A stretch of DNA of 64,000 nucleotides from Halocafeteria seosinensis (taxonomy: Eukaryota): assembly GCA_001687465.1 (NCBI GenBank), contig LVLI01000517.1, positions 1 through 64,000 on the forward strand, in the 5' to 3' direction. The translations under genes were made by a program, and so were the position numbers. Under the pieces are notes generated by a model. The model did not search any database, was not told where the DNA came from, and saw only the letters and a program-made list of their open reading frames with translations. Positions within the stretch are counted from its first letter, which is position 1, and every line of letters begins with the position of its first letter. Shown here piece after piece: positions 28,871 through 62,420 of the stretch.

Positions 28871-28967
28871 ATTATTTATGGCTACCGGCCAAGTGGAAAT
28901 GTAGTTGGAGGATCTTCACGCCGTCGAAGATCTCCCCCGGGCCCTCCTGCATTACTTACCCAGGCGC
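28871..28967 (+). repeat. Inverted fragment homologous to the 5' end of copy C
   Basis: ATTATTTATGGCTACC..TTCACGCCGTCGAAGATCTCCCCCGGGCCCTCCTGCATT matches the reverse complement of ~20731-20809. Confidence 0.75.
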
Positions 28968-32300: not shown

Positions 32301-34146
32301 ACATTGGTCGATATTCTAAACAGTCCCGCGAACTTCGAAATACCACTCAAATCAATGATATTTCCCTCTTCGCGTCCTCCGTCAAACAGCTCATTCTCAT
32401 TCAAGGTGATGTAATCGTTATTCGTGTAGCCATGGCTTTTCCAAGTTAGCCTACTGCAGTTTAGCTTAAGCAAATTCCGTTCGGGAGTATAGGTAAAGCA
32501 TCTCTCGGAGCCATTTATAATTGCGTCTCGTAAATCTCTGGGTAATGAGCTCGGACTCGGAGCTATTGTAGCTGTGATTGATGGAGTCCGAGTTGGAGAT
32601 GGACTGAAGGAGATGCTAGGTGTGCTCGTCAGGGTCGGTGTGGCTGTAGGGCTGACAGTTGGAGTTAATTGAAACCGCAAGATCGGTAGTTGCTCCTCCA
32701 CACTGCTGCCTCCATCTAGAGCCCATACGTCATCAGACCATTCTCCAACTGGATATAGTTGTCCATGTATGTCTGTCAAATCATCTGAGTTTCCTGTCGG
32801 AGTAAGACGGTTGCCATCATCCACTCCTACGATCGACGCTGCTCCTCCATTTCCATTGTATACTGAGTATTTCACGTGGATTGTACCACTTGCTTCACTT
32901 AATATAGATCCTATAGTACCGCCAGCATCCGTACCAGTGACTGCACCTGATGCATATGTATTTGTGACGTAGACATCACCTGTAGCCCAACCTGCTCGCC
33001 CTCCTGTCTGGTCTCCTGTAATACCCCCGGCTTCTTGGCCACTGATATCTCCTCGTGTATAACAATCTATGATGTGTACTTTACCGCCATTGTGCGCAAT
33101 TTCACCACCAGTGATCCCTCCACTATTTTGCGCAGATATTAGTCCTATACTATAACATTCCTTGATGTAAACGAGTCCATTAACAGTACCAGCACCAGCA
33201 CCCACAATGCCGCCACTTCCGGCGCCCGGGGCCCCCCCTAGCAGATTTCCAGTGGAATAGGAACGAGTAATATACACTTTTCCACTAGATTCACCAGCAT
33301 TACCCCCGCAAACACCACCTGCCCCTACTCCTTGAATAGTCCCAGTGGAATAACAATGCGTGATATTGACAATTCCATGGTTGAATCCGACTCGACTCCC
33401 TACAATACCACCGCTCCACGCACCGTTTATCATCCCTGTCGAATAAGAATTCGATATCTTGATGTGGCCTCCAGAGCTGACACCACTTTCATGACCACAT
33501 ATACCACCAGAGTTGCTGCCTGCAATATCTCCGGAGGAGCTACATGAGTCTACGATAAAGAATTTCTGGTGTTGTTGGACAATGAATCCGCCCGAGATTG
33601 CAGTTTCCCCATTCCTAACAACAAGATTCTGAATCAAAGGAGCTCGGTCAAACGACGCAACACTGACCATTACCTTAAATAGTCCTTTGAAATCTGTCAT
33701 TCCATGCAAGTCAATTATGTGCCCATTCTGCCGACCACCATCAAATTTCTCATTCGCATCCAACGAGATGTAGTCTTGATGCGTATAACCATGATCACCC
33801 CATGCCAACACACTACAATTCATTTCAAACCGCCGCTGAAGCGATGCATAATGAAAGCACGGTTCAGTTCCGTTTAGAATCGCATGTCGTAAATCTCTTG
33901 CTAAAGCAAGAGAACTAGAGCAATAAAGGGACACAGCCAAAAGGATGGCAATTCCACGCTCTGCTGCAGTTACAACACATGCACAAATACAAGCATGTCA
34001 AAAAACAAAAAAACAAAAAAAAGAGCAGCATGTTGAAACTTACTTTGTCGTCCTCGATACCCTCTTGTAGGGTCTTTTCTCGGGAAGGGGCGGCAAGAAG
34101 TTGCAGGTCTGCAACTCGATACTTTGGTGGCGTTTTCACGCAGCAT
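29321..34146 (-). CDS. Surface-receptor family copy E, two ectodomain modules, intact; probable 5' exon ~34044-34146
   Basis: 1539-aa ORF 29321-33940 with two DLR...LPILRF modules, stalk, TM and tail. Upstream GTAAGT donor (34043), T-rich tract and CAGCAG acceptor (33964/33961) join in frame to GIAILLAVSLYCSSSLALA. Confidence 0.85.
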
Positions 34147-34999
34147 CGTCGAACGTCTCCTGCAACACAGACACATCAGTACTAATGATGTGCATACGTG
34201 GCCTCATGAGACTTACCCCTTTGTTTGCGGCGGACCGCTGCCGCCAACGGCGTTGAATATCTTCCCCATGGTACAATGTACCCTTAGCCTTGTGTTGGAA
34301 AAAAGGCTTTTGACGATACAGCAGCAGATACCCGTTAAGCTGGTGCTGCTGGGTAGTTTTGAAAGAGTACTCCAAGCTTGGGAATAGCGTCTCGTACGAT
34401 TCGTACGGTACGAACAAGGCGGGGTGAAGGGTCCTGCCCTTTGGATTACATATGATGAAGGGATGGGTGGCTACAAAGCCAACACGGGGACAGCTGAAAC
34501 AAATAAAGCGTCTCTAGTGAATTCTAAGAAAGAGTTGCTAAGTGCATTTTCGACAATACACTCGAAATCGAGACTAGTATAGCTAGCCCCGTAAACCTGA
34601 CAGACTGGCTACATGCAAGTTGCAAACGATTCATGAAAACATAGCAACAAGTGTGCTTCATTTAATACATAGGGGAGTATCAATGCAAGTTACACAAGCA
34701 TCAATCAAATCCCGTCACACAGCTTGGAGAGTTTCCTACAATTTCAGGTGTCACCCAGGGTTTTTCAAGCTTCGATTCCGCCGAAGTCTGCCTGAAGAGA
34801 ACGCGGTATTGGTTCTTCCCCGTAAGAAGCTTGGTGCTTCGGGGCGCGATGGCAATCGGACGCTTGGCGTTATTAATAATTCGGAATTATCAAAACCCGA
34901 GGAATCTTGTAAGTACTGGTTTGAGATTACAGAAGCTGAGGCCGGTCCCGATGTACTTGCATAGTCGCTGTCATGGGACTGCAAGTCCCTTGTTTAAGA

Positions 35000-35825
35000 A
35001 TGTGATGGCGAAACAGGACGGAATTCCTCCTTTGTGCAACAACACTGCTCACGTTTCGCCTCCGTGGTATCACGACGTGAGAACCTCTAGCAGAGCAGCA
35101 CGATCCTTGGGAGTGTGTGCATGGCCGGTATCACATTTGCTCATTTGCTAACTAGACCTCAACCAAACCACGGGAGGTGGTTCAGCGAGTAACTTCGCCT
35201 TCCATACGCGCAACCTCAACAATGTCCGATGATATCGTCAGTGCATACGTTGGATACTAAAACTACCTTTATGATCCCATTCCCAGTACTCAACCGCGGG
35301 GTCATAGCGGATTTTTCCCGACTGATGCTTATGTTTTCCATTCAAGTCTATCAACATCACTTGCGGCTGGGACAACGATTGGCCGGGCAAATCAGCCTCA
35401 GGTCTACTCTCGAAAGTCGAATCATACTAGTGGACATCCCATCAGAAACAGCGATAACAGGTGGAGATCCTTTTCGCAGCTGCAACGCTTTCTTCTGCTT
35501 GTAAGAGAGCCTCTGAGATGTCTGCTCCCTGTCTCCCGAAAGACCAATGCAAGTTGCACTGCTGAAAGCCCCCACTCTAGCTAAGCGGATTTATATATCT
35601 CTGGGTACATCCTTCGGGTACACGTTCGAACCATGAGGGGGGCTGGCCTCACTAGCATCAACGCCAGTGTTCGTCAATTCCTGCTGAGCAAGATTCGAGA
35701 GATGGGCTTGGAACGACGCTCCCGGGTCTTTACTATTTGACATTATATGAAAATTGGTGAGGGGTATACCCAGTTGAATAGCAAACAAGGACTTGGGATC
35801 GTCATACGTTGTTGCTAGCCGAAGC
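35000..35825 (-). pseudogene. Relic of the family cytoplasmic-tail region
   Basis: Fragments TYDDPKSLFAIQLGIPL, LRLRVWKAKLLAEPPP and KEEFRPVSPSH, with deletions and frameshifts. Confidence 0.8.
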
Positions 35826-36026
35826 TGGATCAGTTGGCACAATAGAATAGTTGAGCAGATGGGTCCTCAGTCAACAGTCGTGTTTGCCAACGTCAAATAT
35901 GCCTTCTGACTCTGGGGCATCATGCCCCATGGCGCTTCACGGCTGGGTACCACTATTGGGAAATCGTGGCTGCAGACGAAAGTGACGACGACTACATGTA
36001 GCGCCCTGGGCAATGACCCACGAGAG

Positions 36027-39000
36027 TCAAGACCCACCATAGTGAGATGGCAAAATAGGACCGAATTCCTTCTTCGAAACACCCGTGCGAGCGTTTTGCG
36101 AGCGTTTCGCCTTTGCCTCACGAACTAGAGCGTCACGGTGAAGAGCTTGGGTCCGCTTGGCAAAATCGAGTTGAGCTACATGACCTTTAGGATCGCCTAC
36201 ATGACCGGAATCGCACTTGCTCTCTCTTTCCAAGTTTGACTCAGAGCCAGCTACAGCGGAATTCACTATCGGAGGTGTATCAAACTGGATCTCGACCAAG
36301 GGAGGCGGTTCCGCTAGTAACTTTGCCTTCCACTGACGTAACTTCAGAACAGTCCGATTGAGACGACTCATGTCGTCGGTGCATACACTTGATGCTGCGG
36401 CCACCTTTATTACTGCATTTCGTCCGACGGGCTGTTTCCATTCCCCTGTAGTTAACTGCGGAGCCGACGCCGAGACCACATGAATTTTTCCGGAATGATA
36501 TGGACGCGGTCCGCTCAAATCAATTAACATTATCTGAGGAATTGCTTCCATGTTAGCAGGATAGGCAGAATCAACGCTAGAGTGTTGTATGCTCTCATCA
36601 CCAGTTCGTTCAGGATTAGCTGTGACAGGATGATATCCAATACGCCGTTGCACGGCTTTCTTTTGCTGAGGTGAAAATGCCTTCGAGGCTTGTTCTCTAT
36701 TTCCTGAAGGGACAAAGTACGTTGCACTGCTAGAACCCCCGTTACGAGTGAGGGGATTAATTTGAGCTACTTTGTAGCCTTCGGAGACCCCGCTCCAGTG
36801 CACAGCAGACGATGCATGCGGGGAGTTGGTCTCACCGATCTTGGCACACGCTCCAGTCCACGCCTGGTTAGTAGCAACATTCACATGATGGGCTTGAAAT
36901 AGCATACCTTCATTGTTATTCCTTTTTCCACCCGACACTACCTGCAAATTGCCGATCGGTATTCCCAGATGACTAGCATACATTGAGCCAGAACCGTCAT
37001 ACGTTTTGGCCAGGCGAGTATTGTGCCGCCGTCGATACACAATGAAACCTAGGCACATCACTCCGATGACACCAAAACTGGCACCCAGAACAACCCCAGC
37101 TACAGCCGGCACTGAGCTCATCTTCGGGTTTACGGGGCCCGCGTCGCCCTTGTTGTTGATAGGTTCAGCGCTTGTGGTCACGCTTTGCCTGGCTTCCGTT
37201 GCAGACAACGCGCCTGATTCAGTCTCAGATGGAGACAAAGTTTGTGTGTACATGGCCGTTGGTGTGATGGTGGTTGAGGCTGTCGCTGTCGCCGGATCTC
37301 TAATAAGGGGAAGGGGAGTTTGGGTCCAAGAGGAGGAAGAGGCACCTGTGGCGCTTGCTGTTGTTGGTACGATCGAATCAGTATAAGATTGCGTTGACCC
37401 TGTTGCCGAAGTCGGTATATGAGTCCATGGTGTGGTCCTTGCATGTGTGATCGAACCCGTAATTGCGATTTTTCCTTTTGGAGATCTCGATTCACTGCCG
37501 GAAGCCGTCGAAGTTGGAGCACTAGTTCTCGAGGCAGTCTTCGAGTGAGATCCAGTAGATGTGGACGTCGAAGTTGGCGTAGATGACGCTGTGCTCGAAC
37601 TGGAGCCAGTCACAGTTCTAGTGCCGGTCGCTGTGGGTGTCGGACTAGCTGTCATTGTTGCTGAGCATGTGACGGACTCAGTTCGAGTGGAAGTAGTGGT
37701 CGCTGTAACAGTCGGGCTGGTTGTAGTAGATGTAGAGCCTGTCACAGAGTCGGTTTGAGTAGAAGAAGCGGTAACGGTGGCAGAGCCGCTTGCCGAATGG
37801 GAAGAAGTGCGACTCGGGCTAGCAGAGCGAGTGCCTGTTGTCGTTGGTGATAATGAGGGACTACCTGTACTTGAAATTGAACCACTCGCGGTAGAGGATA
37901 GGGTCACCGTTGCCGTAGCTGTCCCCGTTCCTGTTTGCGTAGGAAACGATGAAATGCTTGCGGTAGAGGTTAGGGTCGCCGTTGCCGTAGCTGTCCCCGT
38001 TCCTGTTTGCGTAGGAAACGATGAAATGCTCGCAGTTCTTGAATTTGATGGAGATAAAGTCATGGAACCAGTCGCCGCGCTGCTCGGTGTCGCTGTGAGG
38101 CTTGCGGTAGCACTGGGTGTGCGTGGCAACTGGAAGCGTAGAATCGGCAGCAGATTCTCCTCGTCGTCGTCACTTTCTCCTCTATCGACAGCCCATACGT
38201 CCTCAGACCACCCTCCCAGTTGATACAGTTGTCCCTGTATATCGCTTAAATCATCTGAATTGGCTGTTTCTGCAAGATTAGTTACATCATCCACTCCTAC
38301 GATCGACGCTGCTCCTCCATTTCCATTATATACCGAATATTTCACGTGAATAGTACCACTTGCTTCACTTAATATTGATCCTATAATACCGCCAGCATTT
38401 GTCCCAGTGACTGCACCTGATGCATATGTATTTGTGATGTATACATCTCCTGTCGCACGACCTGATTGCCCTCCTGTCCTCCATCCTGTAATACCTCCTG
38501 CTTGGGTGCCACTAATATCTCCTCGTGTGTAACAATCTATGATATGTACTTCACCCCCATCGTCTGCTGTATCCCCTCCGTTAATCCCTCCACTATAATC
38601 TGCAGATATTTGTCCCATACTATAACATTCCTTGATATAAATGAATCCATTAGTAAGACCAGCATCGTCACCCACAATACCACCACTGGATAGACCACTA
38701 GGAATAATATCTCCTGTGGAATAGGAACGAGTTATATACACTTGACCATTTGTAAGACCAGCACCATTTCCACAAATACCACCTGCCCTCCATCCTTCAA
38801 TATTCCCAGTGGAATAACAATACGTTATATTGACAAGCCCATGATTGTATCCTACATTGTCCCCTGCAATACCACCTGCTCTGTTACCTAGTATCCTCCC
38901 TGTCGAATACGAATTCGATATCTTGATTTGACCATGATCAAAACCACTTCGCCAACCACATATACCACCACCGTGGCTACCAGCAATATCTCCTGATGAA

Positions 39001-39905
39001 CTACATGAATCTATGATAAAGAATTTCTGCTCTTGTTGGACAATGAATCCACCTGAGGATGCAGTTAACCCATTCCTAGCATCAAGATTCCGAATCAAGG
39101 GAGCTTGATCAAACGATACAACACTACCCAGTATCGTAAACAATCCTTCAAAGTCTGTTATTCCGTTCAGATCTATGAAGTTCCCATTCTGTCGACCTCC
39201 GTCAAATGTCTCCTTCGCATCCAACGAGATGTATTCTTGATTCGTATAGCCATGATCACCCCATGCCAACACACTACAATTCATTTCAAACTGGTGTTGA
39301 GCCGTATTATAATGAAAGCAGGATTCGTCACCATTTAGAATCGCAGGTCGTAAATCTGTTGCTGCTACTACCTCGTTCAAAAGAATACAGCCAAAGAACA
39401 ATTACGCCAACACAATCGTCGTCTGGGACGAAATACTCGTACTTCGCAGTCCGTAAGCCAGAGACGCTTTTAAATCTGCTCGACGCGCTAGGCGTTTCAT
39501 TTTCATCTTAGAGGTTGGCCATGTCTGCATCTGGATTGGGACCCGAAATACCAGACGAATAGTTCTTTCTAAAGAGATTATGGCAAATGTCGAACAATCT
39601 TCATCACTTGGAGTTGCCAAGCTCTGAACCCCCCAATGCAATGCTAGTGCCTGGAACGATGTGACCAGCAGGCTGAATAAAACAAGCAGTGATCTCTCCT
39701 CTAAGAAAGTCCAGAGGAGGAGTCCAAAGGGCGTCATGTGTTTATAGAAGGTGAATATCTTTCGGACAATATGGAGTGGATCCACATCCTTCGTTATCGT
39801 GCTGACAGCCGTGAAAGCAGTATCTCCTCGTCCATGGGCACAGCTAGACAGATGATCGGTTGATAGGAAGCTCCTGCGTTCTCCACGGCTACGCCCACTC
39901 TCCAT
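36027..39905 (-). pseudogene. Surface-receptor family copy F; otherwise intact but with one TAA inside the signal region
   Basis: ORFs 39402-40157 and 36027-39401 are same-frame. TTIVLA*LFFGCIL aligns to copy H TTVILTALLSGCIL. Downstream 1124 codons are open with TM and tail. Confidence 0.65.
37888..38031. repeat. 72-bp tandem duplication in the copy F stalk
   Basis: Two near-identical units encoding TASISSFPTQTGTGTATAT(A/V)TL(T/S)S. Confidence 0.9.
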
Positions 39906-48499: not shown

Positions 48500-49093
48500 T
48501 ACACGATGGCATCGTGGGTTAGAATACCACATCTTATACGATCCACGAAGCGTATTTCTTCTTTGGCCACTTCGATCTGGACGCTGATGTTGGTAGGGAT
48601 CGCTGTCTTCATTACTGTCCTGGTTTGCTTGCTAATTGATCGTGTTCAAAAGCAACTGGAACTGGACTTGTTCAAAACCCGGGAGCTATATTCTGCTGTC
48701 GCCTCTCATTGTGCCACTCTGGTGCATGGATATAGTATGAGAATGACTCAGTAAGACAGCACCCATATTGTTTAGTCTGTTCTGCTTGTATCGTGTCGTT
48801 ATCTTCATTCGGTTGACAGAAAATTGAAAAGCCACGTTATCCCACATTTTCCGATAGGCGGGTTGCTAGGACCCAACATGGAATCTTGTGAATACTGCAT
48901 ACTTGGAAATACGGGGAGAAGGTTGAACGCCTCAAGGATGACTCTCGCACTGTTGCAGTGTAAAGCCATAGAGCTTTCAGCCTCTAACGAGAAGAATTTC
49001 ATAGGAGGCTTCTGTAAGCTATGGCTAACCTCCGAAACAATCATATACCTCGAACCAAACGGTGGAGCTCATCCAAGGTTTAATTGGAAAACG
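48500..49093 (+). pseudogene. Relic of an unknown gene (one hydrophobic helix), homologous to 63380-63925
   Basis: Shared colinear blocks: WTLMLVGIAVFI vs WTLTLIGVVFI; LLVSCR; WNLVNTAYLEIR vs WNLVTTAYLEIR; ATCCAAGGTTTAATTGGAAAACG vs ATCCAAGGTTTCATTGGACAACG. Confidence 0.65.
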
Positions 49094-49500
49094 CAGTCTG
49101 CTTGTTGCCTCATTCCATGTTCTATCATGGATCTGGTATTTCCCAAAAGTAACTTCATTCGTTGTTGGAGCAAGCACAGCACTAACCCGCCTGGAACGAT
49201 GGCTGCTAGAACCCAGATACATAGGCTCCGAGAGCGAAGGAGCTTCATAACATCTGCTGATCTGTCCACTTGTGCTCCCCCACGAAGAAGTACTGTGTTA
49301 ACGAGTGCCAACACGATGCCGAACGATGTGGATCCACTTCATAGTGGTGGCCGGCAGATTATCCCCACTTTAGAATACGTGGAGCATATGCTACTACTTG
49401 GATCCCTCGGCCCGACTTCGCCCAAATCACTGCTTATTTTGTTCAGTCTGCTTGTTGCCTCATTCCATGTTCTATCATGGATCTGGTATTTCCCAAAAGT
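49094..49500 (+). repeat. Perfect 57-bp direct repeat (49094-49150 and 49444-49500)
   Basis: CAGTCTGCTTGTTGCCTCATTCCATGTTCTATCATGGATCTGGTATTTCCCAAAAGT twice, 350 bp apart. Confidence 0.95.
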
Positions 49501-51499
49501 TAAGATGTTGGCAACTCCCGGAGAAGATTCCTGGCCAGTTCCTAGCAACTCTTTGGAAGGGACTTCTCTATTGCAATATAAAACCCAAAGCCCAACATCG
49601 GTACGGCCAGTGCATACATGTATTATGAAGAACAAGCAGTTAGTCAATCGACCAGATTTAAGAGTGTCTCAGGCCCACGCACTGCGGGTTACGAGTACTA
49701 CGTCACTAACGACGGTTATCCTAACGGCATTGCTTTCCGGTTGCATTCTCTCGAGCCAAGCAACGGCGGAAGATTTGCGGTCCGCAATTCTAGCTGGAAA
49801 CGAATCCTGCTTTAATTATAATTTGGATGAAAACCAGTTTGAAATGAATTGTAGCGTGTTGACATGGGGTGATCATGGTTATACGAATCAAGATTTCATC
49901 TCCTTAGATGCAAATGAGATATTTGATGGTGGACGACAAAATGGGCACATAATAGATTTGGGTGGGATAAAGTTTTTCCATGGATTGTTTACGATGCTGA
50001 GTAGTGTTGCATCGTTTGATCAAGCTCCCTTGATTCGGAATCTGGATGTTAGGAATGGCTCAGCCGCAGAGAGAGGTGGATTCATTGTCCAACAACAGAC
50101 GAAATTCTTTATCATAGATTCATGCAGCTCTTCAGGAGACGTCGCTGGTGATTGGGGCGGTGGTATATGTGGTTTTCAAAGTGGCCTTAATCATGGGCAT
50201 ATCAAGATATCGAATTCGTATTCAACAGGGAGGATACTGGGTTCATATGCAGGTGGCATTGCCGGAAGCCAAGCGGGATACAATCAAGGGATTGTCGATA
50301 TCACGCATTGTTATTCCACTGGGGATATTGAAGGACAAGAAGCAGGTGGTATTTGTGGATATGCAATAGGTTATAGTAAGGGTCGAGTATATATAACTCG
50401 TTCCTATTCCACTGGCGATATCATTCTTGGTGCTGACGGGAGTGGCGGTATATTGGGTGAAAATGCTGGTTATGATAACGGAGTCATTGATATCAAGGAA
50501 TGTTATAGTATGGGGAAAATTTCTGCAGATTATAGTGGAGGGATTAGTGGGGGTGATACAGCAGAGAATAACGGTGAAGTGCGTATTATAGATTGCTATA
50601 CACGAGGAGATATTAGTGGCAAACAAGCAGGTGGGATTACAGGAAAGAAGACAGGAGGATCTTCAGGCCAGGCAACAGGTGATGTATACATCACGAATAC
50701 TTATACATCAGGCGCAGTCACTGGGACGGATGCTGGTGGGATTATAGGAGGGATATTAACTGAAGTCACTGGAACTATTCACGTGAAATACTCCGTATAC
50801 GATGGCAAAGGAGGAGCAGTATCGATAGTAGGAGTGGACCCTGGCAGCAAGCTTTCTAAGACAGGAAACTCAGATAATTTGACAAAAATTCATGGACAAC
50901 TGTATCAAATGGGAGGATGGTCTGATAGTGCTTGGGCTCTAGATGGAGAAGGAGATGTCACTCATGACGACGAAAGGGAGATTCTGCCAATTCTACGCTT
51001 TCAGTTACCGCCGTCTGCTACCCCTTCACCCATGTCCACGTCCACTCCATCTACGACAACAACGAGGTCGGAATCCCCTTCAACTAGCTCTGCAAGTGCA
51101 ACCTCATCGTCATCGCAGAGCATAACGGACACTCCAATCACAACTGCAACTGCCACGTCAACGTCGCCCGGAACCTCCATGTCATGTAGTATTCCTACGA
51201 GATCTGAGACTCCCTCAAGTAGCTCCGCACTCTCTGCAAGTGCTACGCTACTGTCAACGCAGAGCCAAACAAGGGCTCTTACTGGGAGTGCGAGTGCCAC
51301 AACACCTTCCACGTCACAAGAGCAACCGAAGAGTGAGTCGTCGTCGACTCCAAGTGGAGATGCTTCGGAAGCTGCCTCACAGTCTGAGTCACGGAATGCC
51401 ATCGAGCGAACCACGAGACTTCCGCTTGTGCGATGCCATGAGCCAGCTATGAGACATGTCTACAGGAAGGTCTCGGTAAGGCGAAACGCATGGACTTGA
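49199..51499 (+). CDS. Surface-receptor family copy H: inverted, ectodomain plus partial stalk, no TM/tail (secreted or truncated)
   Basis: Leader homologous to copy F; AEDLR; GLUG-like repeats; LPILRFQL; Ser/Thr stalk, then unrelated 3' end. ATG 49199 aligns near the copy F start. Confidence 0.7.
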   Translation: MAARTQIHRLRERRSFITSADLSTCAPPRRSTVLTSANTMPNDVDPLHSGGRQIIPTLEYVEHMLLLGSLGPTSPKSLLILFSLLVASFHVLSWIWYFPKVKMLATPGEDSWPVPSNSLEGTSLLQYKTQSPTSVRPVHTCIMKNKQLVNRPDLRVSQAHALRVTSTTSLTTVILTALLSGCILSSQATAEDLRSAILAGNESCFNYNLDENQFEMNCSVLTWGDHGYTNQDFISLDANEIFDGGRQNGHIIDLGGIKFFHGLFTMLSSVASFDQAPLIRNLDVRNGSAAERGGFIVQQQTKFFIIDSCSSSGDVAGDWGGGICGFQSGLNHGHIKISNSYSTGRILGSYAGGIAGSQAGYNQGIVDITHCYSTGDIEGQEAGGICGYAIGYSKGRVYITRSYSTGDIILGADGSGGILGENAGYDNGVIDIKECYSMGKISADYSGGISGGDTAENNGEVRIIDCYTRGDISGKQAGGITGKKTGGSSGQATGDVYITNTYTSGAVTGTDAGGIIGGILTEVTGTIHVKYSVYDGKGGAVSIVGVDPGSKLSKTGNSDNLTKIHGQLYQMGGWSDSAWALDGEGDVTHDDEREILPILRFQLPPSATPSPMSTSTPSTTTTRSESPSTSSASATSSSSQSITDTPITTATATSTSPGTSMSCSIPTRSETPSSSSALSASATLLSTQSQTRALTGSASATTPSTSQEQPKSESSSTPSGDASEAASQSESRNAIERTTRLPLVRCHEPAMRHVYRKVSVRRNAWT

Positions 51500-52882
51500 C
51501 CGATCGGCAGTGTTTGCGTTTGGCCCGCTAAGAAACATACTCAGCGATTCCTTTGTGGAACGCCAAAGATACGGAACTCTAACAACTAGGCTACGAGAGG
51601 TGAAAACAGGAAAAGTGAAGTGCTCTCCGCGAGTCATTGACTGCTGTTTTTTGACGACTCTTTGTAACTCGGTGACTTGCTTCGAACGGCCTGAAAAGCC
51701 GTCCCTTTGTGGGAACGCAGAGTATCCATTATTACTTGTACTGTGAAAAGGATTTAATTGATGGATTCCTTACTACGAGAAAGCAACGTAAGTATTCTAC
51801 GTACACATCTGTTTGGCGAAGAGTGTCTAGAAGGAAAGCCTTAATAGTAAATAGACTACAGCGTGAGCGCAAAAGCTACCTATAACCTACCTGCATCACT
51901 GGGGAGCGAGTGGTACTTTGGTAGCTTTTCTTGAAACGAAGCCATTTTTATCAGCTATAGGCGTTAAATAACTTCAGAATGAATTTCGGGAGCATGGGCA
52001 AACGGCAGTTGCCACGCACTGCTCCCACTTTTGTATACCCCAGTGGTTCTCATCTCTGGCATATCGCGGGTTCATTCGGTTTAAGTCCGGGGCAAAATGG
52101 CACACCTCGGTTATCGAGGGCCCCACCCCGAAGCGATGCTGCTTCATTATCTAGTTCCAGATAACAAACAACGTAAGAAGTGTAGTGTATTTGGTTCTTT
52201 TCGCTTTTCCAAGTCTGCAAGAACATCATAGCCTTGGTCAGTCTTTTCTTGTGGTCGGGCGGACGACTCCGACCCTCGGGATCTGGATTCTTCAGGTTGC
52301 GAGTCGACTTGCGACTTAGCGACAGGTTGTCGCAACCAAGTCACATACAAAAGCGTTCGGTGGATGAATTCCATGCTTGATGACGGTGCCGATTGCACGA
52401 TAAGTCGTAGTATTGTCTGGGAGGAGCTCTATTCTTTCATCCATCTCATTTATTGGGCCCATTTAGCTTGTTTTACGCTGCGTGGAATTCTAGCTGCGAA
52501 CCAGCCACTAAACGCTCGCCCATTGCCTACAACCCTGTATGGAGGAAGACAAGCAAGACCAGACCTCAAGAGTGTGTGTTATAGTTTCTCTCGTTTTCAT
52601 TTGAGTGATTTGGTGTGTTGAAAAGCTTCTGAAGTCTTGCATAAAAGCAGAGAGAAGGGTCCAGAAAACCTATCCACCCTTATCTCATTCAGTGCTCTAT
52701 GCTCATGTGTGTAGCGGATGCACGCACATTTTATTAAGAGTGAGTGACCAAATAAAGACGCATATAAGCGTCAAAAGGAATCGGAAAAAAAAAACAAGAG
52801 GAATCGAAAAGTGAGGGAGGAATCGAGAACTTGTCTCCCTTTCTCTCCGTTGTATTTTTGAGCTAACAGAGAGCAGTCAGTC

Positions 52883-55800
52883 ATGCATGGGCGTGGAGGA
52901 GGGCAGTCGCGTCGCTCCATGCAGCCCCAGCAGCGAGTGCGCGGTCGTGGTACAAGACGCTCATCCGATGGCGCCGCCGCCGTTCCTCCCATAGGAGGGG
53001 CAGGAGAACTAGCCGTGAGCTCCATGTCCCATAATAACAACGGCAGTAATGGGCGTTACGCGCCGGAGGAGGGCGGTCAGGGGCTTTCCATTCAGTCCTC
53101 GTCCCGGAGCCAACCCGAGGAGCATACAGGGCAACAGCCGAAACAACTTGGCCAACTCTTCCAAACACCTCCCCAACGGCAACCACCGCAGCAACAGCGC
53201 TCTCCACGATCGGGGCGCTTCAGCAGTGCGAGGCACCGACAGGCGCGGCATAGCAGTGCGATGCCGCCGAAAGCACAGCCGCAACCGCAGTCGCAAGATG
53301 GAGAGGGCGTTGCGAATGGAGGTTTGCCACTGACTATTTTTGGAGTCGATAAAGTGGACCTAGCTGCGCATATGCCCTTTGTCCGAGCACCGCCGTCATC
53401 AGACGGACAACCGTCTCTTTCTGATTGCCCCAATGCCGGATACAATTCCCCGGGTGCTGTGGACATAAACAAAGCGCTAGACACAATGTCTGTCCACATG
53501 CACAATTTGGCGGACACTTTGTCTGCGCGGAATTTTCAGTACACGTTCTCGCCACAACTCTACGGGCATCATTCGCTTGCGGGAGATTTGACTCCAAGAT
53601 CTGATGCAACACCCCGTTCAGAGCCCTCGGCGACAAAAGAAGAAAAGAGTCCAAGAGACAACCGCCGCGGTGGTGGCGTGTCCCAGTTCCGCCAGAAACC
53701 GCAAAATGAGAAGGCGCGCCGTCAACAGAAGAAGTCGGAAAAGAAAAAGAAAAGACTGATGGAAAAGAATCGAAAAGTGGCGGAGCAAGAAAGAAAGTGG
53801 ATGAACGAAGAAGAGTGGAGGATGGAACGATCAAAATGGTGGGGCCAGCATGTTCGTGACGGCTCCTGGCGCACTGTACGTGTTTTCATTAGCAGCACTT
53901 TTAATGACATGCATGGAGAGCGGGATGCATTGACAAGAGTGGTCTTTCCTGCGTTAAACAACAAGGCAAAAAGCCGCCGTGTTAGAGTTGTCCCCGTCGA
54001 TTTACGCTGGGGACTTACATCGGAAGATACGTCCGACTCGGGCTTGGGAGCATTGGAGCATTGTCTACTTGAAATTGATAATTCCCGGCCATTCTTTGTC
54101 GTCTTACGGGGAGAGCGATATGGATGGATTCCTCCAAACTATCGCGTCTCTGATCGGTAAGTTTCCTGTAGTATTTTCTCCAAAGTGAGTATCCCCATAC
54201 ACTCGTTGTCGTGTAGAATCTTGCAGGCCTCAATTTGACTGGATCAAGCATTTTGAGCCGGGGCACTCTATTACGGCAGTAGAAATTTATCATGGGTTTT
54301 TGAGGAAACCTTTTACTCCTGTTCATGCGCTCTGTTACGAGCGGGACTCTGCTTTCATTGATGATGTCCCTACGGAGAAAGAGCGAAAGATATTTGCCTT
54401 TGACTATCCAAATAATCCAGAGGTTAAAGAAAGGCGCGATAAACTGATTAATGACATCAGGAACCACCAATATGCGAAATCGCGCTCTTATCCCGCTCAA
54501 TATGGAGGGATGGACGAAGAGGGTAAAGCGTTGGTGACAGGGTTAGAGGAATTCGAGCGAATGATCATGGAGGATCTATGGGAAGCAATTAAGCAAGAGT
54601 TTCCTCCTCCTCCACCTCCACCTTCCGAGTTGGCGTTGGAGAGGTCTTACCATAATCATTTTGTGGAAGAAAGAAGTCGCCAATTCATTGGCCGAAAAGC
54701 GCTCATGAATGAGTTGGAGCAAGTAGCCAATAGCTCGTTCAACACGGACTCGCTGCCTTTTATTGTAGTGGGAGCCCCCGGCAGCGGGAAAACTTCCCTT
54801 GTTACATCCTTTGCGAAATATTTCGGAGAACTACACCCCCGCGTTTTTGTACTGGTCCATGTAGTAAGTGCGTCTCCAACAAGCACTGACATTAGGGAAA
54901 CACTGCTTCGGCTGTGTCGTGAATTGGTTGCGCGCTTTGAGATCGAGGATCTCAATACGGATAGTGATGATTATCAAACCGTAAAGGAGAATTTTGCGCT
55001 CTTACTCGAGCGTGCCGGCCATGCGGCTATGAACGCAAAGACCCACATCCTACTTGTCCTGGATGCTATCAATCAGTTCAACCCGTTTTATGGAGCTCAT
55101 ACGATGGACTGGTTACCTGCCTACATGCCCGCGGGAGTGAGAGCGATTCTGTCTACCACCCCTGATGCTCAATGTCTGACCGCTTTACAAAAGAGAGATC
55201 CGAAGCCCCCACAGCTGGATGTACCGCCGCTTGAATTTAGTGAACGATGTGACATTGTGCGAAATGCGTTGGCTGAGTACAGAAAGAAATTACTACCAAC
55301 CCAAATGAATCTCCTGATGGAGAAGTCGGAAAGCCACAAACCGTTGTATCTTTTGACTGTGTGTGAAGAGCTACGTTTGCAAGCTCAGTATGGGGTGGAA
55401 GGCTCCGGTGTTGATCGGAAGATCAAACAGCTACCTGGGGAAATCCCGACACTACTCGATGTCGTCTTGGAACGGGTGGAACGAGACTTGTCTACTTGGG
55501 CGCAGTCAACTTCGACGGAAATCACCCCTGCTCACAGCGTGTTCAGCCCGGACACAGGGGAAGACATGACTTCGCAACTTGATAATGGACATTTGATTGT
55601 TCGTGACGCGTTGACGTTACTCGAATGTTCTCGTCATGGACTTCGGGAAAACGAGCTGCTAGAGCTACTGGCTCCTCCGGGAAAGAGTCAACTGCCGCCT
55701 GTTGTGTGGGCAAGGCTGTACAGATCCCTCGAGCTATACCTGCGTCCCTTAGGAGAAGAAGATGAAGGGATGTTGGGTTTCTTTCACCAACAAATGATGA

Positions 55801-58800
55801 TTGCGGTCCGCCGACGATACTTACAAGACAATAGGCGAGCCGAGGCAGAAGTATGCGGTCGACTGACCGAATATTTTTTTAACAAAGCTGATCCGACTGG
55901 GGATGGACAATGGCTCGGCGACCAAAAACGGTATTTCCTGGATCTGGTATACTATCAGTTGCGAGCGCTCGACTTGTCCGGCCTGAGACGGACGCTAGGC
56001 GACCTGCTTTTCATTCAACGGCGAGCGGAGCAAGGAGTAGGAAGCATGGAGCATCTTCTACGGGATTACTACGACGCTCAAGAAGAACTACGAACATTGC
56101 GCTATTCACTCCTTCGCGAAAAGCTCAAAGAAGAGCAGGGTGCGAGTCCTAAAGAGGAGGAGGATTTCAGTGCCGCGCGAAGCTCTCTTCTTCAGTGGAT
56201 TGGCGAGTTCCTTGTATTCGTTAGCTCTCATCATTCGACACTCACGTCATATCCAAAGCTGACCTTCCAGTATGCTCTTAATCAGCCCGATTCGTCGACG
56301 CCGTTTCAAACAGCAGAGAAATTAGTTAAAGATGAGTGCGATGCCATTCTGGAACAATTGCACGCAAAGGAAAATGATTACCGGGAACTCACGACGAAGG
56401 TATCGAATGGAGCACAAGAAAACGATTCCGGCGAAAGCGATGCCGAAGCTTCGAAGAAAGAAACTAAGAACCCTTCGGCACCCAAACAAGGCGGAGTTGA
56501 ACTAAAGCAAAAGCTCGACCATATATGTGACAATGCACAAACGCAGTTAATTCCTCGACGTTTTTTAGAGTGGTCGAACAAGCCGCAGAGAAATCGAATG
56601 GTGGCTGACTTCGCCGGCTACAACTATGAAGTGTCATGTATCTCACTCAATCCAGATTCCAGCTTAATTGCTATTGGCTTCAAGTCTGGTACCATCCAAA
56701 TAATCGACGCAGATATTGGTGAAATGATTCGAGAGCTTTCGACCGGTGGCCACAGTGCAGGCGTAACTTGTCTTGCGTTTTCGTCTGACGGACTTCGACT
56801 CATCTCTGGCTCTTACGACACTAATGCAGTGGTTTGGGATGCCCTAACAGGCTCTCTTCTGAGCACTCTTGTCGACCATTCCGGAACAATTACCTCGGTC
56901 GCGTGGTTGGAAAGCGATACCCGTGGCCGAAGGTCCCGAACAGTTGCAACAGCTGGTTTGGACTCCGTCATCCGAGTGTGGGAAGAAAAAATCCAAACCG
57001 ACACATACGGGTTCGGAGGAGGTGGAGAGGATGAAACAAGATACGAAATTATCTGGGATCAGTCTTGGCTGCAGAGTCCGATTATGGCTATGAAGTACAA
57101 TCAAGCCTCCAAGTGTCTAGCAGCTGGTCATGCGGACGGTCAGGTACAACTGTGGGACGCGCATGCCCCGAATCTTGGTCTTATACAGATTTCCCAGTTT
57201 ACAGCTCATAGGTACATGCAAGCCGTTTCCACGATTTCTTTGTCTCCTGATGGATCGCTGTTGGCAACCGGCTCTCTGGACCAAACAGTGAAGCTTTGGG
57301 AGAAGCGAATGATGGACACGGATGCTATTTGGAAACCTATGGAACTTCAGGGCAAGGGTCACAATGGCGCCATAACGTGCCTAGACTTTTCTCCGGATGG
57401 ACATAAACTTGTAACAGCTTCCCTCGATAAGAAGTTGCTCCTCTGGGATGTCACTACTGGAAAGGAGATCGTTGCCCTCAATGGTCACGCCGATGCAGTG
57501 TACTCTGCCGAGTTTACACATAGCGGGGATCGTGTTGTTTCAGGCAGTTACGATAAAACAGTGAAGACCTGGGATGTAGAGGGGGTTGACGATTATGGGG
57601 TTGTTCCTCCTGTGAAGAGGGCTGATCACCAAGGAAATGCTCTGAAATCGCCTTCAACAAGGCGCAGTTTCGTCCCAAGACGGCGCCGACTCGGTCGACG
57701 AAGTTCTCAGAGCAGGGATCTACCACCGCTATCGACAAAGAGTAGTACTGAAAACACCCCTAGTTCGACTAGGTCATCCAACGTATTTTTCCGAGACAGC
57801 AGTGATACCGAATCCCCGCTTGCTCAATCGCGATTCGGATCGACTTCTGAGCTGCTCAACGCCAACGATTTGGGAATCCCCTCTGGTGCTCATGCTGAGA
57901 GAGTAACGGCCGCTACAGTAAACTATGGCGGCACCTTCGCCGCCACAGGATCAACGGACAAGACAATGAAGATTTGGGATCTGGAGAAAGTTCACGAGAA
58001 GGTTGTCCTTGTAGGTCACAATTCCAGTATTACTGCGCTTGCATTCATTGGAGAGGACGAATACCTGGTATCTGGTGATGGCGGAGGCAATATCATGGTT
58101 TGGGACGGCAACACGTTTGATCATCAGCGGACGATTCATGCACATTCTAATGTAGCCGTCACATCAATGACTTGGTGTGATTTGCGAGGCAGAGGGACGG
58201 ATAAGTATTCAGGGGATCTGCTGGTAATAACTGGAGCTGCGGATGGAACAATAAAGGTTTTCGTTGCTAGAGATGGCTTTCCTTGGGAAATCCAGCCACC
58301 CCAATGCTTCCCCCGGCTCGTTGAAGTCAGTTCACTTCGATACGTGCCCGCAACGCGAAGCAAACTGCCGTTGGACTGTACCCCAACTCCCGTGAACAGC
58401 GGACACCTTTCCGACTATCATTTGAAGCAACGGACGGCGAAGCACAGTGAAGAGGAAAGTCGTCAAATAGCTTTGCGAAACCTGTTAGCGAAGGCATTGA
58501 AACGGAAGAGCGTTACGGAGGCGAAAGAAAGTGACGATAGAACGAGTGAGCCGGACGCGATATCCGAGTACCAGGGAATCATCAATATGATGCGAATGTA
58601 CCTGCCGAGTTTTGTTCCTAGCAGCGAGGCCATTGCTAATGCCATCCCGAAGACGATGGCATATAAACTACATGAAGAAGCGACGAAAAATGAAAAGAAA
58701 AAGAGACGCAAAAAGAAAAAGGACGTGGTCTTAGATGATGCTCAAATCTTGGAGGATGTACGAACGCTTATGAAAGAATTTGTTGGCACTTCTGGGGAAG

Positions 58801-61403
58801 AGTCTGAGCAACTGTTGCAAACATGGGAAGACGACGCGAATGGAAACGGAGTTGATCCTCCCGCATCCGTTGCTGGGGTTGTTGCTGATCCACACGAACG
58901 GGACAGAGTAATATGTGTGGGATCCTCGGGTCAGGTGTGTGTTCTGGACTTGTTTTCAATGGCTGTTGTAACGTCAACCCGGCTGTGTGATCCCATCGGT
59001 GGCTCAGTTAAGCTTTCGGCCGTTGATCCGTTAGGGGCTCGCATCAGCGCTGCTGCTCGCACGAAGAGCGAACCACTGCACACAATCGTTTCTCCGACGG
59101 GGAATACTGAAAACCGGGTGTCCCTAGTTATGGATTTGCAGTCACAGAATGAGAATGAAGAGTCGGAGGCCCAGCAGGACGCTGGCCTAAAGCCAAAAGA
59201 GGTGGTGGAGAAAGAACGCCAAGAAAAATTCAATGCAGACCTTCAAAAACGCATTGAAAAAGTTGAACAGAAGAAGAAAGAAAGAGAAGAACGGAAAGCA
59301 AGGAAGAGAGCCCAGCGCCTAAAACAAAGTATGCTGAGCGGCGAAGCATTGGATGATTCTGATTCATCCGATGAAGGGTCGGAGGCCGACACTGGAAGCG
59401 ATACTAAGGGTTCTCACCGAGAGGACCAAAATCAAGAGAATTCAGTATTCCGTCAACTTGTGGAGCGCTCGCACTACCGAACATGTTCTTCGATGGCATT
59501 CAGCCATGATGGCTCATTAATAGCTTGCGGCAGTTCTGAGAAGGTAATTTCGTTGGTAGATTCCTCCAGGCCGCACTTGGGTCCTTTAGCTCAGTTCTTG
59601 GCTTTTGGCGAGGTTACTGCTATTGCGGTTGGTCCTGGCGTGCTCCCATGGGACTTGTCCCAATTCAAGGGCTCAAACGGAACAGACGGGATCTCAATGC
59701 TTGACCTAGTTTTTGGGGGTGTTAGTGCGCAAAACGGTGCAGAAGTAGACGAAGAGCCAGACGACATTCGAAAATGCAGTACATCATACTTAGAGGAGTT
59801 TGTGGCAAACCAGGAGAAAAAACTCAGCAGTCTTATCCCTCGCGCCTGCCTTGGTAACGGACAGGGATGTCTCGGTCTTTTGATAGCGGGCGATAGTACA
59901 GGAGCGGTTTTCATCCTCAGGCTTCAAGATATCATCCGGCGAGCTGAGGCAGACTATTTTAGCTCTCTTTTGGAACGCGAAAGGAGTCGCCGACAGCAAG
60001 TCCTGGATGAAGCACTAGAGGAGCTGCAACGTCGTCAACTCGAGAAAGACGATGCTAAGCAAAGCGAATCTGGACAGCGGCATGCTGCGCCGTTGCAAAC
60101 TTTAACGTTTGCGAACGGGCGCCAGGGCGTTGCCGCCTATTTACCTCGCGTCCTGCATTATAGAGAAGCAAAAGATGTACAGTTGTGCAATGAAGTAATT
60201 GCATCCCTCGGTATTGACTTGGAGGGCTTAGACTTCACGACTCTGATTCCTGTGAGTGACTCAACCAAACTTGCGGAAGCGTTCTTGCCGCGGCGAATTG
60301 AGAGAGGCGAAGGGATGATTCGGGTCTACAGGAAACTAAAAGATTCTGGGGAACCTATCTCATCTGAAGATGAAGACGCACTACAAGAGCATGAAGAGGC
60401 GCAAGCCGAAGAAGAAAAGAAACGATCTGAGGCTCCGTCCGAAAGCAAAGACCGTGGTATGTCAGAGAGGATAAGAAAAGTGGAAGAGCTTCGGAGGCAA
60501 CAAAAATTGCAACAAGAAGCGGAAGAGGCCCGTGAGAAAGCAGAGAGAGCCGAGCCTCTGAGAGAAGAATATTTCCACCGACCGAAAGCCTTAGTATGCG
60601 TGTTCGGGGGAGCTGCTGGTCTTCATGATTTGCTTGTCCCTGGTTTAAAGACTCTAATTCAGAAGGGAGCTGTTGCGGGCGCGGTGATGGCCGGAGCGAT
60701 GATCCTTGATGGTGGAACGGATGCTGGGGTAATGTCAATGATCGGTAGTTCCCTGGAAGACTGCCCCGAACGAACCATGAGGTTACTTGGTATTGTTCCC
60801 GGGGGAGTTGTTAAATTACCTGGGGACGAAGACTTGCACAAGAGCGTTGCAAACAAGGCACCACTTGAATCGCATCATTCGAACTTTGCCATTGTTCCGA
60901 GCAAGGAATGGGGAGGAGAGACGACTTCGATGTTTACGATGATGAAAGCACTGAGCCGCAGACTGCCCACCATTGCGATACTAGCCAACGGAGGTTTCAT
61001 CTCTAAGAAGGAGATTATCAGCGCAGTTCGACAAAGTGTTCCAGTTATCGTTATTTCGGGGAGTGGAAGGCTAGCAGATAAAATCACACTCGCCATCCGC
61101 GGTAAGACGGAGGGAGACGAGAAGCTGTATCGCGAAATGTTGCAGGACGACGAAGTCCGTGACATCGTGCTGAATGGTGAAATATATCTCTACCGTGTTA
61201 CGGATCCCCCGCAAGGCCTTCAGGAATTAGTATGCGATCTTGTTTCCAGCCAAAGGGATAGAATGCTAGCTGACAGCTTCTGGAGGAATGGTGAAGAAAT
61301 TTCAGAGTACTTAAGGCAGCGCCTAGATCGCCCGCCAGACGTGGTCGCTAATACCGCAGAAGCAACCGAAATAGCTGGAAAGGGTCATCTTCCTTTACCG
61401 TAA
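52883..61403 (+). CDS. STAND/NLR-like protein: DUF4062-like, NACHT NTPase, WD40 repeats, C-terminal SLOG (LSDAT/TRPM-type); exons 52883-54156, 54227-61403 (~2816 aa)
   Basis: RVFISSTFNDMHGERD..VDLRWG..GERYGWIP..SITAVEI; Walker A GAPGSGKT (54771); Walker B LLVLDAINQ; many GH..WD repeats; VFGGAAG..DGGTDAGVM..LESHHSNF..WGGET..NGG..GSGRLAD. 70-nt intron 54157-54226 (GTAAGT..TGCAG). Confidence 0.9.
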
Positions 61404-62078
61404 CCATTCTAATCAGCGTACGTGTTCATAAGTTTGTACAAAATTAAAGTATAGTTGGGTAGATCCACTCGGCGTTCCCGATACGGAAGATATTCACTCC
61501 CATATCATTAAAAATACTACCCAATCTCTTCCAAATGGGTTGTGCATAAGTGCCACTGGTATACCCAAAGCACTTTGAAACGGACGGATACAGAGCGGAA
61601 CGTGGAACAACTGCTACTCAGATGGGTATGAAGTGTGTAACCTGCCATATTGGTGTGGTCTGTGGTGTCCTTACCACTGTAAACTGTTTCATGCACTCTA
61701 AGATGAAGTAGGAGAAGCAGCGGCGCTAAGAAAGGGTAGGAGACTCTGCCGAACACGAAATCTAAACTCAGACCGTTGGTATGTAGTCGGGTAGTGGTAG
61801 ACTTTCGCTGACGTTTTGATGGCCTAAGACTAGTCTCCTGTGCTAGAGAGTGGCAAGGTACGTGGTCTGACTAGGTCATTCGGCCCAAAGAGAGGAATGG
61901 ACTTGAGAGATTGCTAATATAGAAAGTCGCCAAGGCGTCAGTAAACTCACCACAGCCAACGGCGTAACCGTCACAGTCTCCAGTTTAGCAGCCACCAACT
62001 GGAGGCTCTATCACAGAGTGGAGACGAACTGTCTTATGTTGCGTCAGGGAGACGTGGTCCATAGAGTATTCAATAATA

Positions 62079-62420
62079 ATGTCTAGGGCACCAGTTCCGG
62101 CACCAGCAAGGTTCGCATACAGAGGTCTGTCAGCTGCTTATCCCTCCAATAGTGACTCTGCACTCCCTACAAAAATACAGGAACTGCAAGACAAAGGCTG
62201 CGACATTGAAGAAGAATGCCCTGCATCCTAGTGTTGCCCTATCATGACGTGCATAATGGAAGACCCAGTGATCGCCAAGGACGGCTACACGTATGAACGG
62301 TCTGCGATACAGCAGTGGCTCAGCCAAACGTCTAGTTTTCCTAGAGAAAAACTTCCAGACAGTCAGCTAACTCCAAACTAGGAGTTGGGTCGATGAAACG
62401 TTGAACGATACCTAAAAATA
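62079..62420 (+). pseudogene. U-box domain pseudogene
   Basis: From ATG 62079: ...EEECPAS*CCPIMTCIMEDPVIAKDGYTYERSAIQQWLSQ..PREKL..QLTPN*ELGR*; stops at 62229, 62379 and 62394. Confidence 0.85.

What the first reader, a model, noticed from the sequence alone, without database searches (positions are those of the whole stretch)
52883..61403. NLR-like DUF4062-NACHT-WD40 protein fused to a C-terminal SLOG domain: candidate self-contained nucleotide-signalling immune receptor
Seen: one spliced ORF with a DUF4062-like domain (~53870-54290), a NACHT-type NTPase, WD40 arrays and, after a charged linker, a complete SLOG fold (~60580-61200). Established: DUF4062-NACHT-WD40 is the TEP1/NWD-type STAND layout, DUF4062 belongs to the TIR-like clan, and SLOG domains bind nucleotide/ADPR-type ligands (Thoeris ThsA SLOG; TRPM N-terminal region). 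Inference: WD40 sensing and NACHT oligomerisation could switch on a TIR-like signal-producing domain that is read by the SLOG of the same protein, a eukaryotic one-gene analogue of TIR-to-SLOG signalling. I do not recognise this four-domain architecture.
Basis: partly seen in the sequence, partly recalled or inferred. Interest (0 to 1): 0.88.

Follow-up and report, generated by a model that had tools for sequence, protein, structure and literature searches.

The report
NLR-like NADase with built-in ADP-ribose sensor
A protist gene, conserved across a family of microbial eukaryotes, fuses an NLR-like switch whose head likely cuts NAD+ into ADP-ribose to a TRPM2-type tail domain predicted to bind ADP-ribose, so one protein would both make and sense the same signal.

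Summary
The gene is real: two exons, one 70-nt intron, 2816 aa. A transcript-derived EukProt protein matches it at 2815 of 2816 residues. The domain order is DUF4062 (NIR), NACHT, WD40, then an LSDAT-type SLOG. Two 2026 preprints show DUF4062 is an NAD+ hydrolase yielding ADP-ribose. The catalytic glutamate (TEP1 E1008) is kept here as E444; two of three active-site arginines are not. The SLOG folds like the ADP-ribose-binding MHR1/2 domain of TRPM2 (Z 20.9; ThsA SLOG 13.1). It keeps equivalents of M215, Y295 and R358 but not R302. Thirteen proteins carry all four domains, including one from Platysulcus tardus, and the SLOG-bearing NACHTs form one clade. Bacterial LSDAT genes lie near TIR genes in 25 of 80 loci (about 0.6 expected), twice directly behind TIR-STAND-WD40 genes. 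The SLOG has no effector attached, and family members lose either end independently. No activity was measured, and immunity is not shown. I did not find the architecture in print.

The parts
52883..54156 (+). Exon 1: ATG, about 325 aa low-complexity/charged N-terminus, first half of the NIR (DUF4062) domain
   Evidence: matches P0003
54157..54226 (+). 70-nt GT..AG intron, phase 2, inside the NIR domain
   Evidence: skipped exactly by a contig of run X3; absent from P0003
54227..61403 (+). Exon 2: rest of NIR, NACHT, helical domains, WD40 arrays, SLOG, stop codon
   Evidence: one stop-free frame
53858..54602 (+). NIR/DUF4062 TIR-like domain, aa 326-550 (spans the intron)
   Evidence: Pfam PF13271 E=6e-12; human TEP1 domain 11gz E=6e-46; coordinates
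54282..54284 (+). E444, equivalent of TEP1 catalytic E1008
   Evidence: alignment; E in 120 of 121 NIR rows
54675..55442 (+). NACHT-type STAND NTPase; Walker A GAPGSGKT at 54771-54794, Walker B ILLVLD at 55047-55064
   Evidence: Pfam AAA_16 and NACHT; motifs
55443..56327 (+). Winged-helix and helical region after the NTPase, conserved in the family; boundaries approximate
   Evidence: BLAST to relatives; used in the tree
56592..59942 (+). WD40 arrays (about 56592-57587, 57885-58277, 59445-59942) broken by low-complexity and charged inserts
   Evidence: Pfam WD40 E=3e-68; conserved blocks
59940..60560 (+). Charged linker between the last WD40 block and the SLOG
   Evidence: sequence
60561..61280 (+). 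LSDAT-type SLOG domain, aa 2537-2776; M2594, W2653 and R2706 match TRPM2 M215, Y295 and R358
   Evidence: Pfam PF18171 E=6e-39; model pLDDT 93.8; Z 20.9 to TRPM2 chanzyme; residue mapping

Best explanation
This is an expressed NIR-NACHT-WD40 STAND protein whose head likely hydrolyses NAD+ to ADP-ribose and whose C-terminal TRPM2-type SLOG is predicted to bind ADP-ribose or a close derivative and would thereby regulate the receptor itself. Shown: gene structure, domain order, intact Walker A/B, the catalytic Glu, the SLOG fold and most pocket residues, and the family's monophyly on the NACHT tree. Inferred from the Apaf-1/TEP1 layout: an unknown trigger at the WD40 region frees the NACHT to oligomerise, which clusters the NIR domains and switches on NADase activity. 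Inferred from position and the lack of an effector: the SLOG sits in the sensor slot, so ADP-ribose binding feeds back on the switch. It could be a product-driven amplifier or brake, or an input that detects ADP-ribose made by paralogues or other NADases. The likely output is NAD+ loss or an ADP-ribose pulse from the NIR domain, not an action of the SLOG.
For: DUF4062 domains, including that of human TEP1, convert NAD+ to ADPR plus nicotinamide, need the Glu, and gain specific activity with concentration (10.64898/2026.05.01.722283; 10.64898/2026.09.04.749371). E444 aligns with E1008 and R412 with R976. The best structural and profile matches of the SLOG are TRPM2 MHR1/2, which binds ADPR at about 0.5 uM with M215, Y295 and R358 contributing (10.64898/2026.03.30.715250; PMC6759353). 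In 30 family rows these positions are M in 23, W in 27 and R in 21. The fusion is old and kept: 13 proteins have all four domains, and all 18 SLOG-bearing NACHTs in the tree fall in one 25-row clade (SH-aLRT 100). 24 of 25 family SLOGs also group together (99/94). Bacterial LSDAT genes have a Pfam-confirmed TIR gene nearby in 25 of 80 loci against 0.6 expected. TIR-nSTAND1-WD40 genes lie directly upstream of LSDAT-SLATT genes in L007 and L045, and DUF4062 genes lie near LSDAT in L141 and L154.
Against: No activity or binding was measured. TEP1 R908, whose loss lowers activity, is N341 here, and R954 is G389. Human NWD1, NWD2 and NPHP3 showed no NADase activity in the tested conditions, so a NIR domain can be inactive. 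TRPM2 R302 is M2660 here and is R in 0 of 30 family rows and 1 of 53 other LSDAT rows, so the ligand may not be plain ADPR. The ends uncouple: P0009, P0010 and P0255 have no NIR; P0012 has E to Q and Walker A K to A; P0020, P0036, P0037, P0043, P0098 and P0109 have degenerate SLOGs with the Glu intact; P0085 and P0090 end in a different tail, RyR-like. An LSDAT protein, SPIKE1, is a component of the Tetrahymena ciliary tip (Z 19.4).
Confidence: 0.5

Rival explanations
1. One-gene Thoeris analogue: NIR makes a second messenger, and the SLOG of the same protein reads it and relays it to a downstream effector in trans.
For: Bacterial LSDAT-SLATT genes follow TIR-STAND-WD40 genes (L007, L045), which looks like the two-gene version. 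Pocket residues are kept.
Against: The SLOG is the last domain, about 40 aa from the stop. No SLATT, SIR2 or channel domain was found and the highest 19-residue hydropathy is 1.6. TEP1 NIR makes no ADPR derivatives. Either end is lost independently.
Confidence: 0.13
2. Housekeeping, possibly flagellar or cytoskeletal, STAND scaffold in which the SLOG is a structural or protein-binding module and not coupled to NIR.
For: SPIKE1, an LSDAT protein, binds the ciliary-tip central pair. IQ-like motifs occur in the inserts of 7 family proteins. The WD40 region is as conserved as the NTPase between P0003 and P0004 (84% against 82%), unlike a diversifying receptor. NPHP3, a DUF4062-NACHT protein, is ciliary (recalled).
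Against: The glycine loops, M, W and R of the nucleotide pocket are kept in most family SLOGs. The nearest outside SLOGs are bacterial LSDATs associated with TIR genes, not SPIKE1 (E=0.008).
Confidence: 0.2
3. The NIR domain is a non-catalytic adaptor, as NWD1/NWD2/NPHP3 may be, and the SLOG is the main nucleotide sensor that sets the NACHT switch from cellular ADPR or NAD status.
For: R908 and R954 equivalents are replaced in most of the family: R in 5 of 20 and 0 of 20 rows. NIR-less and E-to-Q members keep an intact SLOG.
Against: The NIR domain is among the most conserved parts of the family (44-83% identity to P0003), with the Glu in 19 of 20 rows and the R976 equivalent in 20 of 20. It is close to the active TEP1 domain (E=6e-46).
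Confidence: 0.15

Closest known systems
TEP1, NWD1, NWD2 (eukaryotic NIR/DUF4062-NACHT-WD40 STAND proteins)
   Same: Same NIR-NACHT-helical-WD40 order; catalytic Glu and R976 equivalent kept; E=6e-46 to the TEP1 domain.
   Different: No TROVE domain detected; has a C-terminal SLOG; has a family-specific GLG insert in the BB loop with R908 and R954 replaced; forms a separate NACHT clade.
TRPM2 MHR1/2 (LSDAT_euk SLOG)
   Same: Best fold match (Z 20.9, rmsd 3.2, 231 aligned); M215, Y295 (as W), R358 and the glycine loops kept.
   Different: No channel; R302 replaced; sequence closer to LSDAT_prok (E 6e-39 against 4e-17).
Bacterial LSDAT_prok-SLATT genes beside TIR or TIR-STAND-WD40 genes
   Same: Same SLOG family (about 30-41% identity); same pairing with a TIR-like NAD+ enzyme on a STAND-WD40 receptor (L007, L045).
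   Different: Separate genes; the SLOG carries or precedes SLATT two-helix membrane effectors; mostly TIR_2 rather than NIR; nSTAND1 rather than this NACHT clade. No PADLOC 2023 model hit the LSDAT proteins tested.
Type I Thoeris (ThsB TIR, ThsA SIR2-SLOG)
   Same: A TIR-like enzyme paired with a SLOG nucleotide sensor.
   Different: ThsA SLOG is more distant (Z 13.1); Thoeris uses 3'cADPR and a SIR2 effector (recalled; 7uxs title); here both domains are in one chain and no effector follows the SLOG.
NIR-type Avs2 (PsAvs2)
   Same: NIR-STAND-repeat receptor that depletes NAD+ on sensing.
   Different: TPR sensor, bacterial; no SLOG mentioned.

Membership tests
NIR/DUF4062 NADase | PF13271 match above cut-off | tested here: met
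   46 bits, cut-off 24.7
NIR/DUF4062 NADase | Catalytic Glu (TEP1 E1008) | tested here: met
   E444 aligned; 11gz numbering offset inferred, and consistent with R908, R954, R976 and E1008 all falling on the right residues
NIR/DUF4062 NADase | TEP1 active-site arginines R908, R954, R976 | tested here: not met
   R976 kept (R412); R908 is N341; R954 is G389
NIR/DUF4062 NADase | NAD+ hydrolysis to ADPR | not testable with these tools
   needs an enzyme assay
NACHT-type STAND NTPase | Walker A, Walker B, NACHT profile, C-terminal repeats | tested here: met
   GAPGSGKT and ILLVLD; NACHT 28.1 bits against 26.7; WD40
TEP1 orthologues | TROVE domain before NIR and grouping with TEP1 | tested here: not met
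   Exon 1 gives only DUF4062; named TEP1 proteins fall outside the clade
LSDAT SLOG | PF18171/PF18139 match and SLOG fold | tested here: met
TRPM2-type ADPR site | M215, Y295, R358 and the glycine-rich helix N-terminus | tested here: met
   M2594, W2653 (aromatic substitution), R2706, G2680-G2681
TRPM2-type ADPR site | R302 | tested here: not met
   M2660; R in 0 of 30 family rows
TRPM2-type ADPR site | ADPR binding | not testable with these tools
   needs ITC or nDSF
Thoeris or LSDAT-SLATT signalling systems | Effector (SIR2 or membrane domain) fused to or following the SLOG | tested here: not met
   None in Pfam; no hydrophobic segment above 1.6; the protein ends 40 aa after the SLOG
Immune NLR | Pathogen-triggered activation or diversifying sensor | tested here: inconclusive
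   Only pairwise identities were compared; no selection test and no infection data

The most novel reading that the evidence does not exclude
An ancient family of protist NLR-like receptors captured a whole bacterial TIR/NIR-STAND-WD40 plus LSDAT-SLOG signalling pair in one chain. The receptor makes ADP-ribose and its own SLOG senses it, giving a self-amplifying or self-limiting NADase switch. NIR-dead and SLOG-dead paralogues act as dedicated sensors and executors in trans, and the family points to an untested bacterial TIR-to-LSDAT-SLATT defence system.
Probability: 0.3. Interest if true: 0.88.

Novelty: new variant of a known kind. Interest (0 to 1): 0.7.

Why it matters
NIR domains were shown to be NADases only in 2026 preprints, and what their ADP-ribose does in eukaryotes is open. 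This family places an ADP-ribose-type binding domain on the same chain, with natural knockouts of either end, so the question 'signal or depletion' can be tested on two small soluble domains. It also gives a eukaryotic role for an LSDAT SLOG outside TRPM channels and the ciliary protein SPIKE1. It flags bacterial TIR plus LSDAT-SLATT gene clusters as a candidate signalling defence system that no PADLOC 2023 model hit in the proteins tested.

Tried and rejected
Two separate genes or a read-through artefact: rejected (single frame; P0003; X3 joint). Co-folding of NIR-NACHT (aa 326-830) with the SLOG and ADP-ribose gave no verdict (score 0.28, mark 0.34; alignments not used), which is evidence neither way. 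No RNA holder was listed among the 4 runs; their kind is not on record. The single-sequence scan of bacterial genomes found nothing; the profile scan did. Viral contigs: no relative. A eukaryote-trained NIR profile found no NIR gene in 80 of 80 genome loci and hit only 2 of the 77 non-family metagenome loci. No whole genome is held, so paralogue number in this organism is unknown. The ESM Atlas gave no answer, so its taxon labels are missing. The SLOG tree holds no TRPM sequence and has no root, so it cannot name a donor or a direction of transfer; the degenerate P0020 fell among bacterial rows as a long branch. Literature searches with no description of the architecture: SLOG+NACHT+WD40 (1 paper, unrelated passages), DUF4062 (15 papers, 12 listed), LSDAT (28 papers, 26 listed), 'SLOG domain'+NLR+stramenopile (0), SLOG+SLATT+TIR+TRPM (0), SLOG/ADPR/NLR-like/protist/TIR (7 papers, listing only). 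Burroughs et al. 2015, which defined LSDAT, is not held and may already note TIR neighbourhoods or this fusion. The preprints' supplements were not seen; Table S5 of the NIR preprint lists EukProt hits and probably includes this protein.
Full report
Observation. The region holds two + strand frames, 52862-54160 and 54189-61403. Removing a 70-nt GT..AG intron at 54157-54226 gives a 2816-aa protein from ATG 52883 to the stop at 61403. A contig of run X3 skips exactly this intron, while run X1 holds the unspliced stretch and may be the window's source; the four runs are one study and their kind is not on record. EukProt record P0003, from a transcriptome assembly and labelled complete, has the same length and one difference, S49P. 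Pfam gives DUF4062, AAA_16/NACHT, WD40 and LSDAT_prok/LSDAT_euk in that order.

The head. I read 10.64898/2026.09.04.749371 (parts 1-3 of 5: abstract, results, discussion; plus a term search), 10.64898/2026.05.01.722283 (part 1 of 7, passages, section 11) and passages of 10.64898/2026.06.25.731849. [quoted passage not shown] NWD1, NWD2 and NPHP3 were inactive in their tests, and TEP1 made no other ADPR derivatives. The word SLOG occurs in none of the three main texts. Our domain matches the TEP1 crystal chain 11gz at E=6e-46: E444 aligns with E1008 and R412 with R976, while R908 is N341 and R954 is G389 (numbering offset inferred). The Glu is present in 120 of 121 aligned NIR rows, so its presence is necessary but weak evidence of activity. 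Walker A and B are intact.

The tail. The AlphaFold2 model of aa 2537-2776 has mean pLDDT 93.8. Against 48,161 chains the best matches are TRPM2 chanzyme (Z 20.9, rmsd 3.2, 231 aligned), zebrafish TRPM2 MHR1/2 (20.7) and Tetrahymena SPIKE1 (19.4); ThsA SLOG scores 13.1. Passages of PMC6759353 and 10.64898/2026.03.30.715250 name M215, Y295, R302 and R358 as the MHR1/2 ADPR residues, with Kd about 0.5 uM. Through the profile alignment to human TRPM2 these map to M2594, W2653, M2660 and R2706. In 30 family rows, fragments included, they are M in 23, W in 27, R in 0 and R in 21; in 53 other LSDAT rows M in 49, W in 53, R in 1 and R in 49. The pocket therefore resembles bacterial LSDATs, whose ligand is untested as far as my searches show. 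No effector follows the SLOG and no transmembrane segment was seen by hydropathy.

The family. A SLOG search among long proteins gave 10 hits including this protein, all with WD40. A NIR-NACHT search gave 332 hits, of which 120 were listed; 12 of those 120 carry a SLOG. The cluster-representative search added four long members. Thirteen single sequences have all four domains: P0003, P0012, P0018, P0019, P0020, P0022, P0026, P0036, P0037, P0043, P0098, P0109 and P0256. An intron-rich locus, L083, has the four in order. The only named members are two paralogues from Platysulcus tardus (P0026, P0262), which I recall as a deep-branching stramenopile. I recall the accession prefix of P0003 as a bicosoecid stramenopile; could not confirm it. 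Named animal TEP1 proteins and other labelled eukaryotic and bacterial hits lack the SLOG. The NACHT/helical tree used 77 of 123 usable rows (non-family rows thinned; P0098 too short; quick method, SH-aLRT only). All 18 SLOG-bearing rows, 5 truncated gene calls and 2 SLOG-less proteins form one clade with support 100. On a 71-row SLOG tree, 24 of 25 family rows group at 99/94 with 3 unassigned fragments. One fusion event is the simplest reading, though neither tree is rooted.

Uncoupling. P0009, P0010 and P0255 lack NIR; P0012 has E to Q and Walker A K to A; all four keep an intact SLOG. P0020, P0036, P0037, P0043, P0098 and P0109 keep the Glu but have lost the SLOG glycine motifs or the arginine. 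P0085 and P0090 have no SLOG and end in a different tail; two short members of the P0085 cluster match the RyR domain weakly. Between P0003 and P0004, identity is 81% (NIR part), 82% (NACHT), 84% (first WD40 block), 64% (later WD40 blocks) and 72% (SLOG), with no clear sign of a hypervariable sensor. IQ-like motifs occur in 7 family proteins. These results argue against obligatory cis signalling and leave a non-immune role open.

Bacterial context. Of 307 confirmed LSDAT matches in bacterial genomes the best 80 were kept. Many are fused to or followed by SLATT/DUF4231 membrane domains. A TIR gene lies within the locus in 25 of 80, and all 27 such frames were confirmed as TIR_2 by Pfam. Five of these genomes gave 30 TIR_2 matches in 34.8 Mb, predicting 0.6 loci, or 3.0 at five times the rate. 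The loci are not independent, since many are cyanobacterial, and the baseline is a loose scan of five genomes. The association still spans Bacteroidota, Alphaproteobacteria, Chloroflexota, Acidobacteriota, Actinomycetota and Cyanobacteriota. In L007 and L045 a TIR-nSTAND1-WD40 gene sits directly upstream of, or slightly overlaps, an LSDAT-SLATT gene. A metagenome set of 80 loci (best of 485; three are eukaryotic family members; some near-duplicates) gave 23 of 80 by my own TIR profile, checked by Pfam in only two loci; DUF4062 genes lie near LSDAT in L141 and L154. An earlier AI note from this scan (e1-2998626) describes a bacterial DUF4062-STAND plus SLOG-SLATT operon; part of it later fell and I use it only as a lead. 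These neighbourhoods support a functional tie between LSDAT and TIR/NIR products, but no such system was tested.

Mechanism. Most likely (0.5) this is an Apaf-1-like NADase whose SLOG binds ADP-ribose or a derivative and regulates the switch by feedback or as an input.

Comparison and novelty. By the tests made, the protein is a member of the NIR-NACHT-WD40 STAND class and carries a true LSDAT domain. It is not a TEP1 orthologue and not a Thoeris member. It works like a fused, effector-less version of a TIR-STAND plus LSDAT pair. Nine literature searches found no description of the fusion (those bearing on it). I also read passages of PMC7159879, PMC13143021, 10.1101/2024.12.02.626492, 10.1101/2023.05.26.542521 and 10.64898/2026.06.15.732245. 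Burroughs et al. 2015 and the preprint supplements were not seen and could hold a prior mention. Verdict: new variant of a known kind, interest 0.70.

Noticed in passing
L007:352-6707, L045:995-6692, L002:4833-8099, L134:1362-11356, L154:9331-16164, L141:630-2339: Bacterial LSDAT(-SLATT) genes cluster with TIR, TIR-STAND-WD40 and sometimes DUF4062 genes (25 of 80 genome loci with TIR). Candidate untested nucleotide-signalling defence system; no PADLOC model hit the LSDAT proteins tested.
   Followed up: partly
P0085, P0090 (proteins from other genomes): Members of the same NACHT clade without a SLOG whose C-terminal tail looks RyR-like (weak Pfam hits in two short cluster members), suggesting a swappable ligand-sensing slot.
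   Followed up: partly
P0009, P0010, P0012, P0020, P0021, P0255, P0256: IQ-like (calmodulin-binding type) motifs in the inserts between WD40 blocks; none matched in the window's protein.
   Followed up: no
window 61404-62261: The longest contigs of runs X2, X3 and X4 would all end near 62261, judged from their lengths; a weak hint, from one study, of a 3' UTR of about 860 nt.
   Followed up: no
window 9287-20817, 26195-39401, 48776-51499: A large tandem family of Gly/Cys-rich repeat proteins with Ser/Thr-rich stalks; several have a hydrophobic helix and a conserved tail ending in KKEFGPILPS. No Pfam match for the two tested; they look like surface proteins, some fragmented.
   Followed up: partly
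window 21148-24111: MULE transposase-like frame (Pfam E=9e-7) with a chromodomain-like end, split by a stop from an upstream frame.
   Followed up: partly
window 62180-62340: Short U-box-like fragment interrupted by stops just downstream of the gene (motif recognised from memory).
   Followed up: no
window 570-2618 (-), 3487-4335 (-), 4529-7984 (+): An LRR protein, a Ras-family GTPase (resembles Rab28, recalled) and an Oxa1/YidC-like membrane protein (recalled; no Pfam hit on the exon tested).
   Followed up: partly
P0356, P0277, L005:4875-6062: Other LSDAT fusions among the hits: TrkA_N-RyR-LSDAT, pYEATS-LSDAT and LSDAT-8xMP.
   Followed up: no
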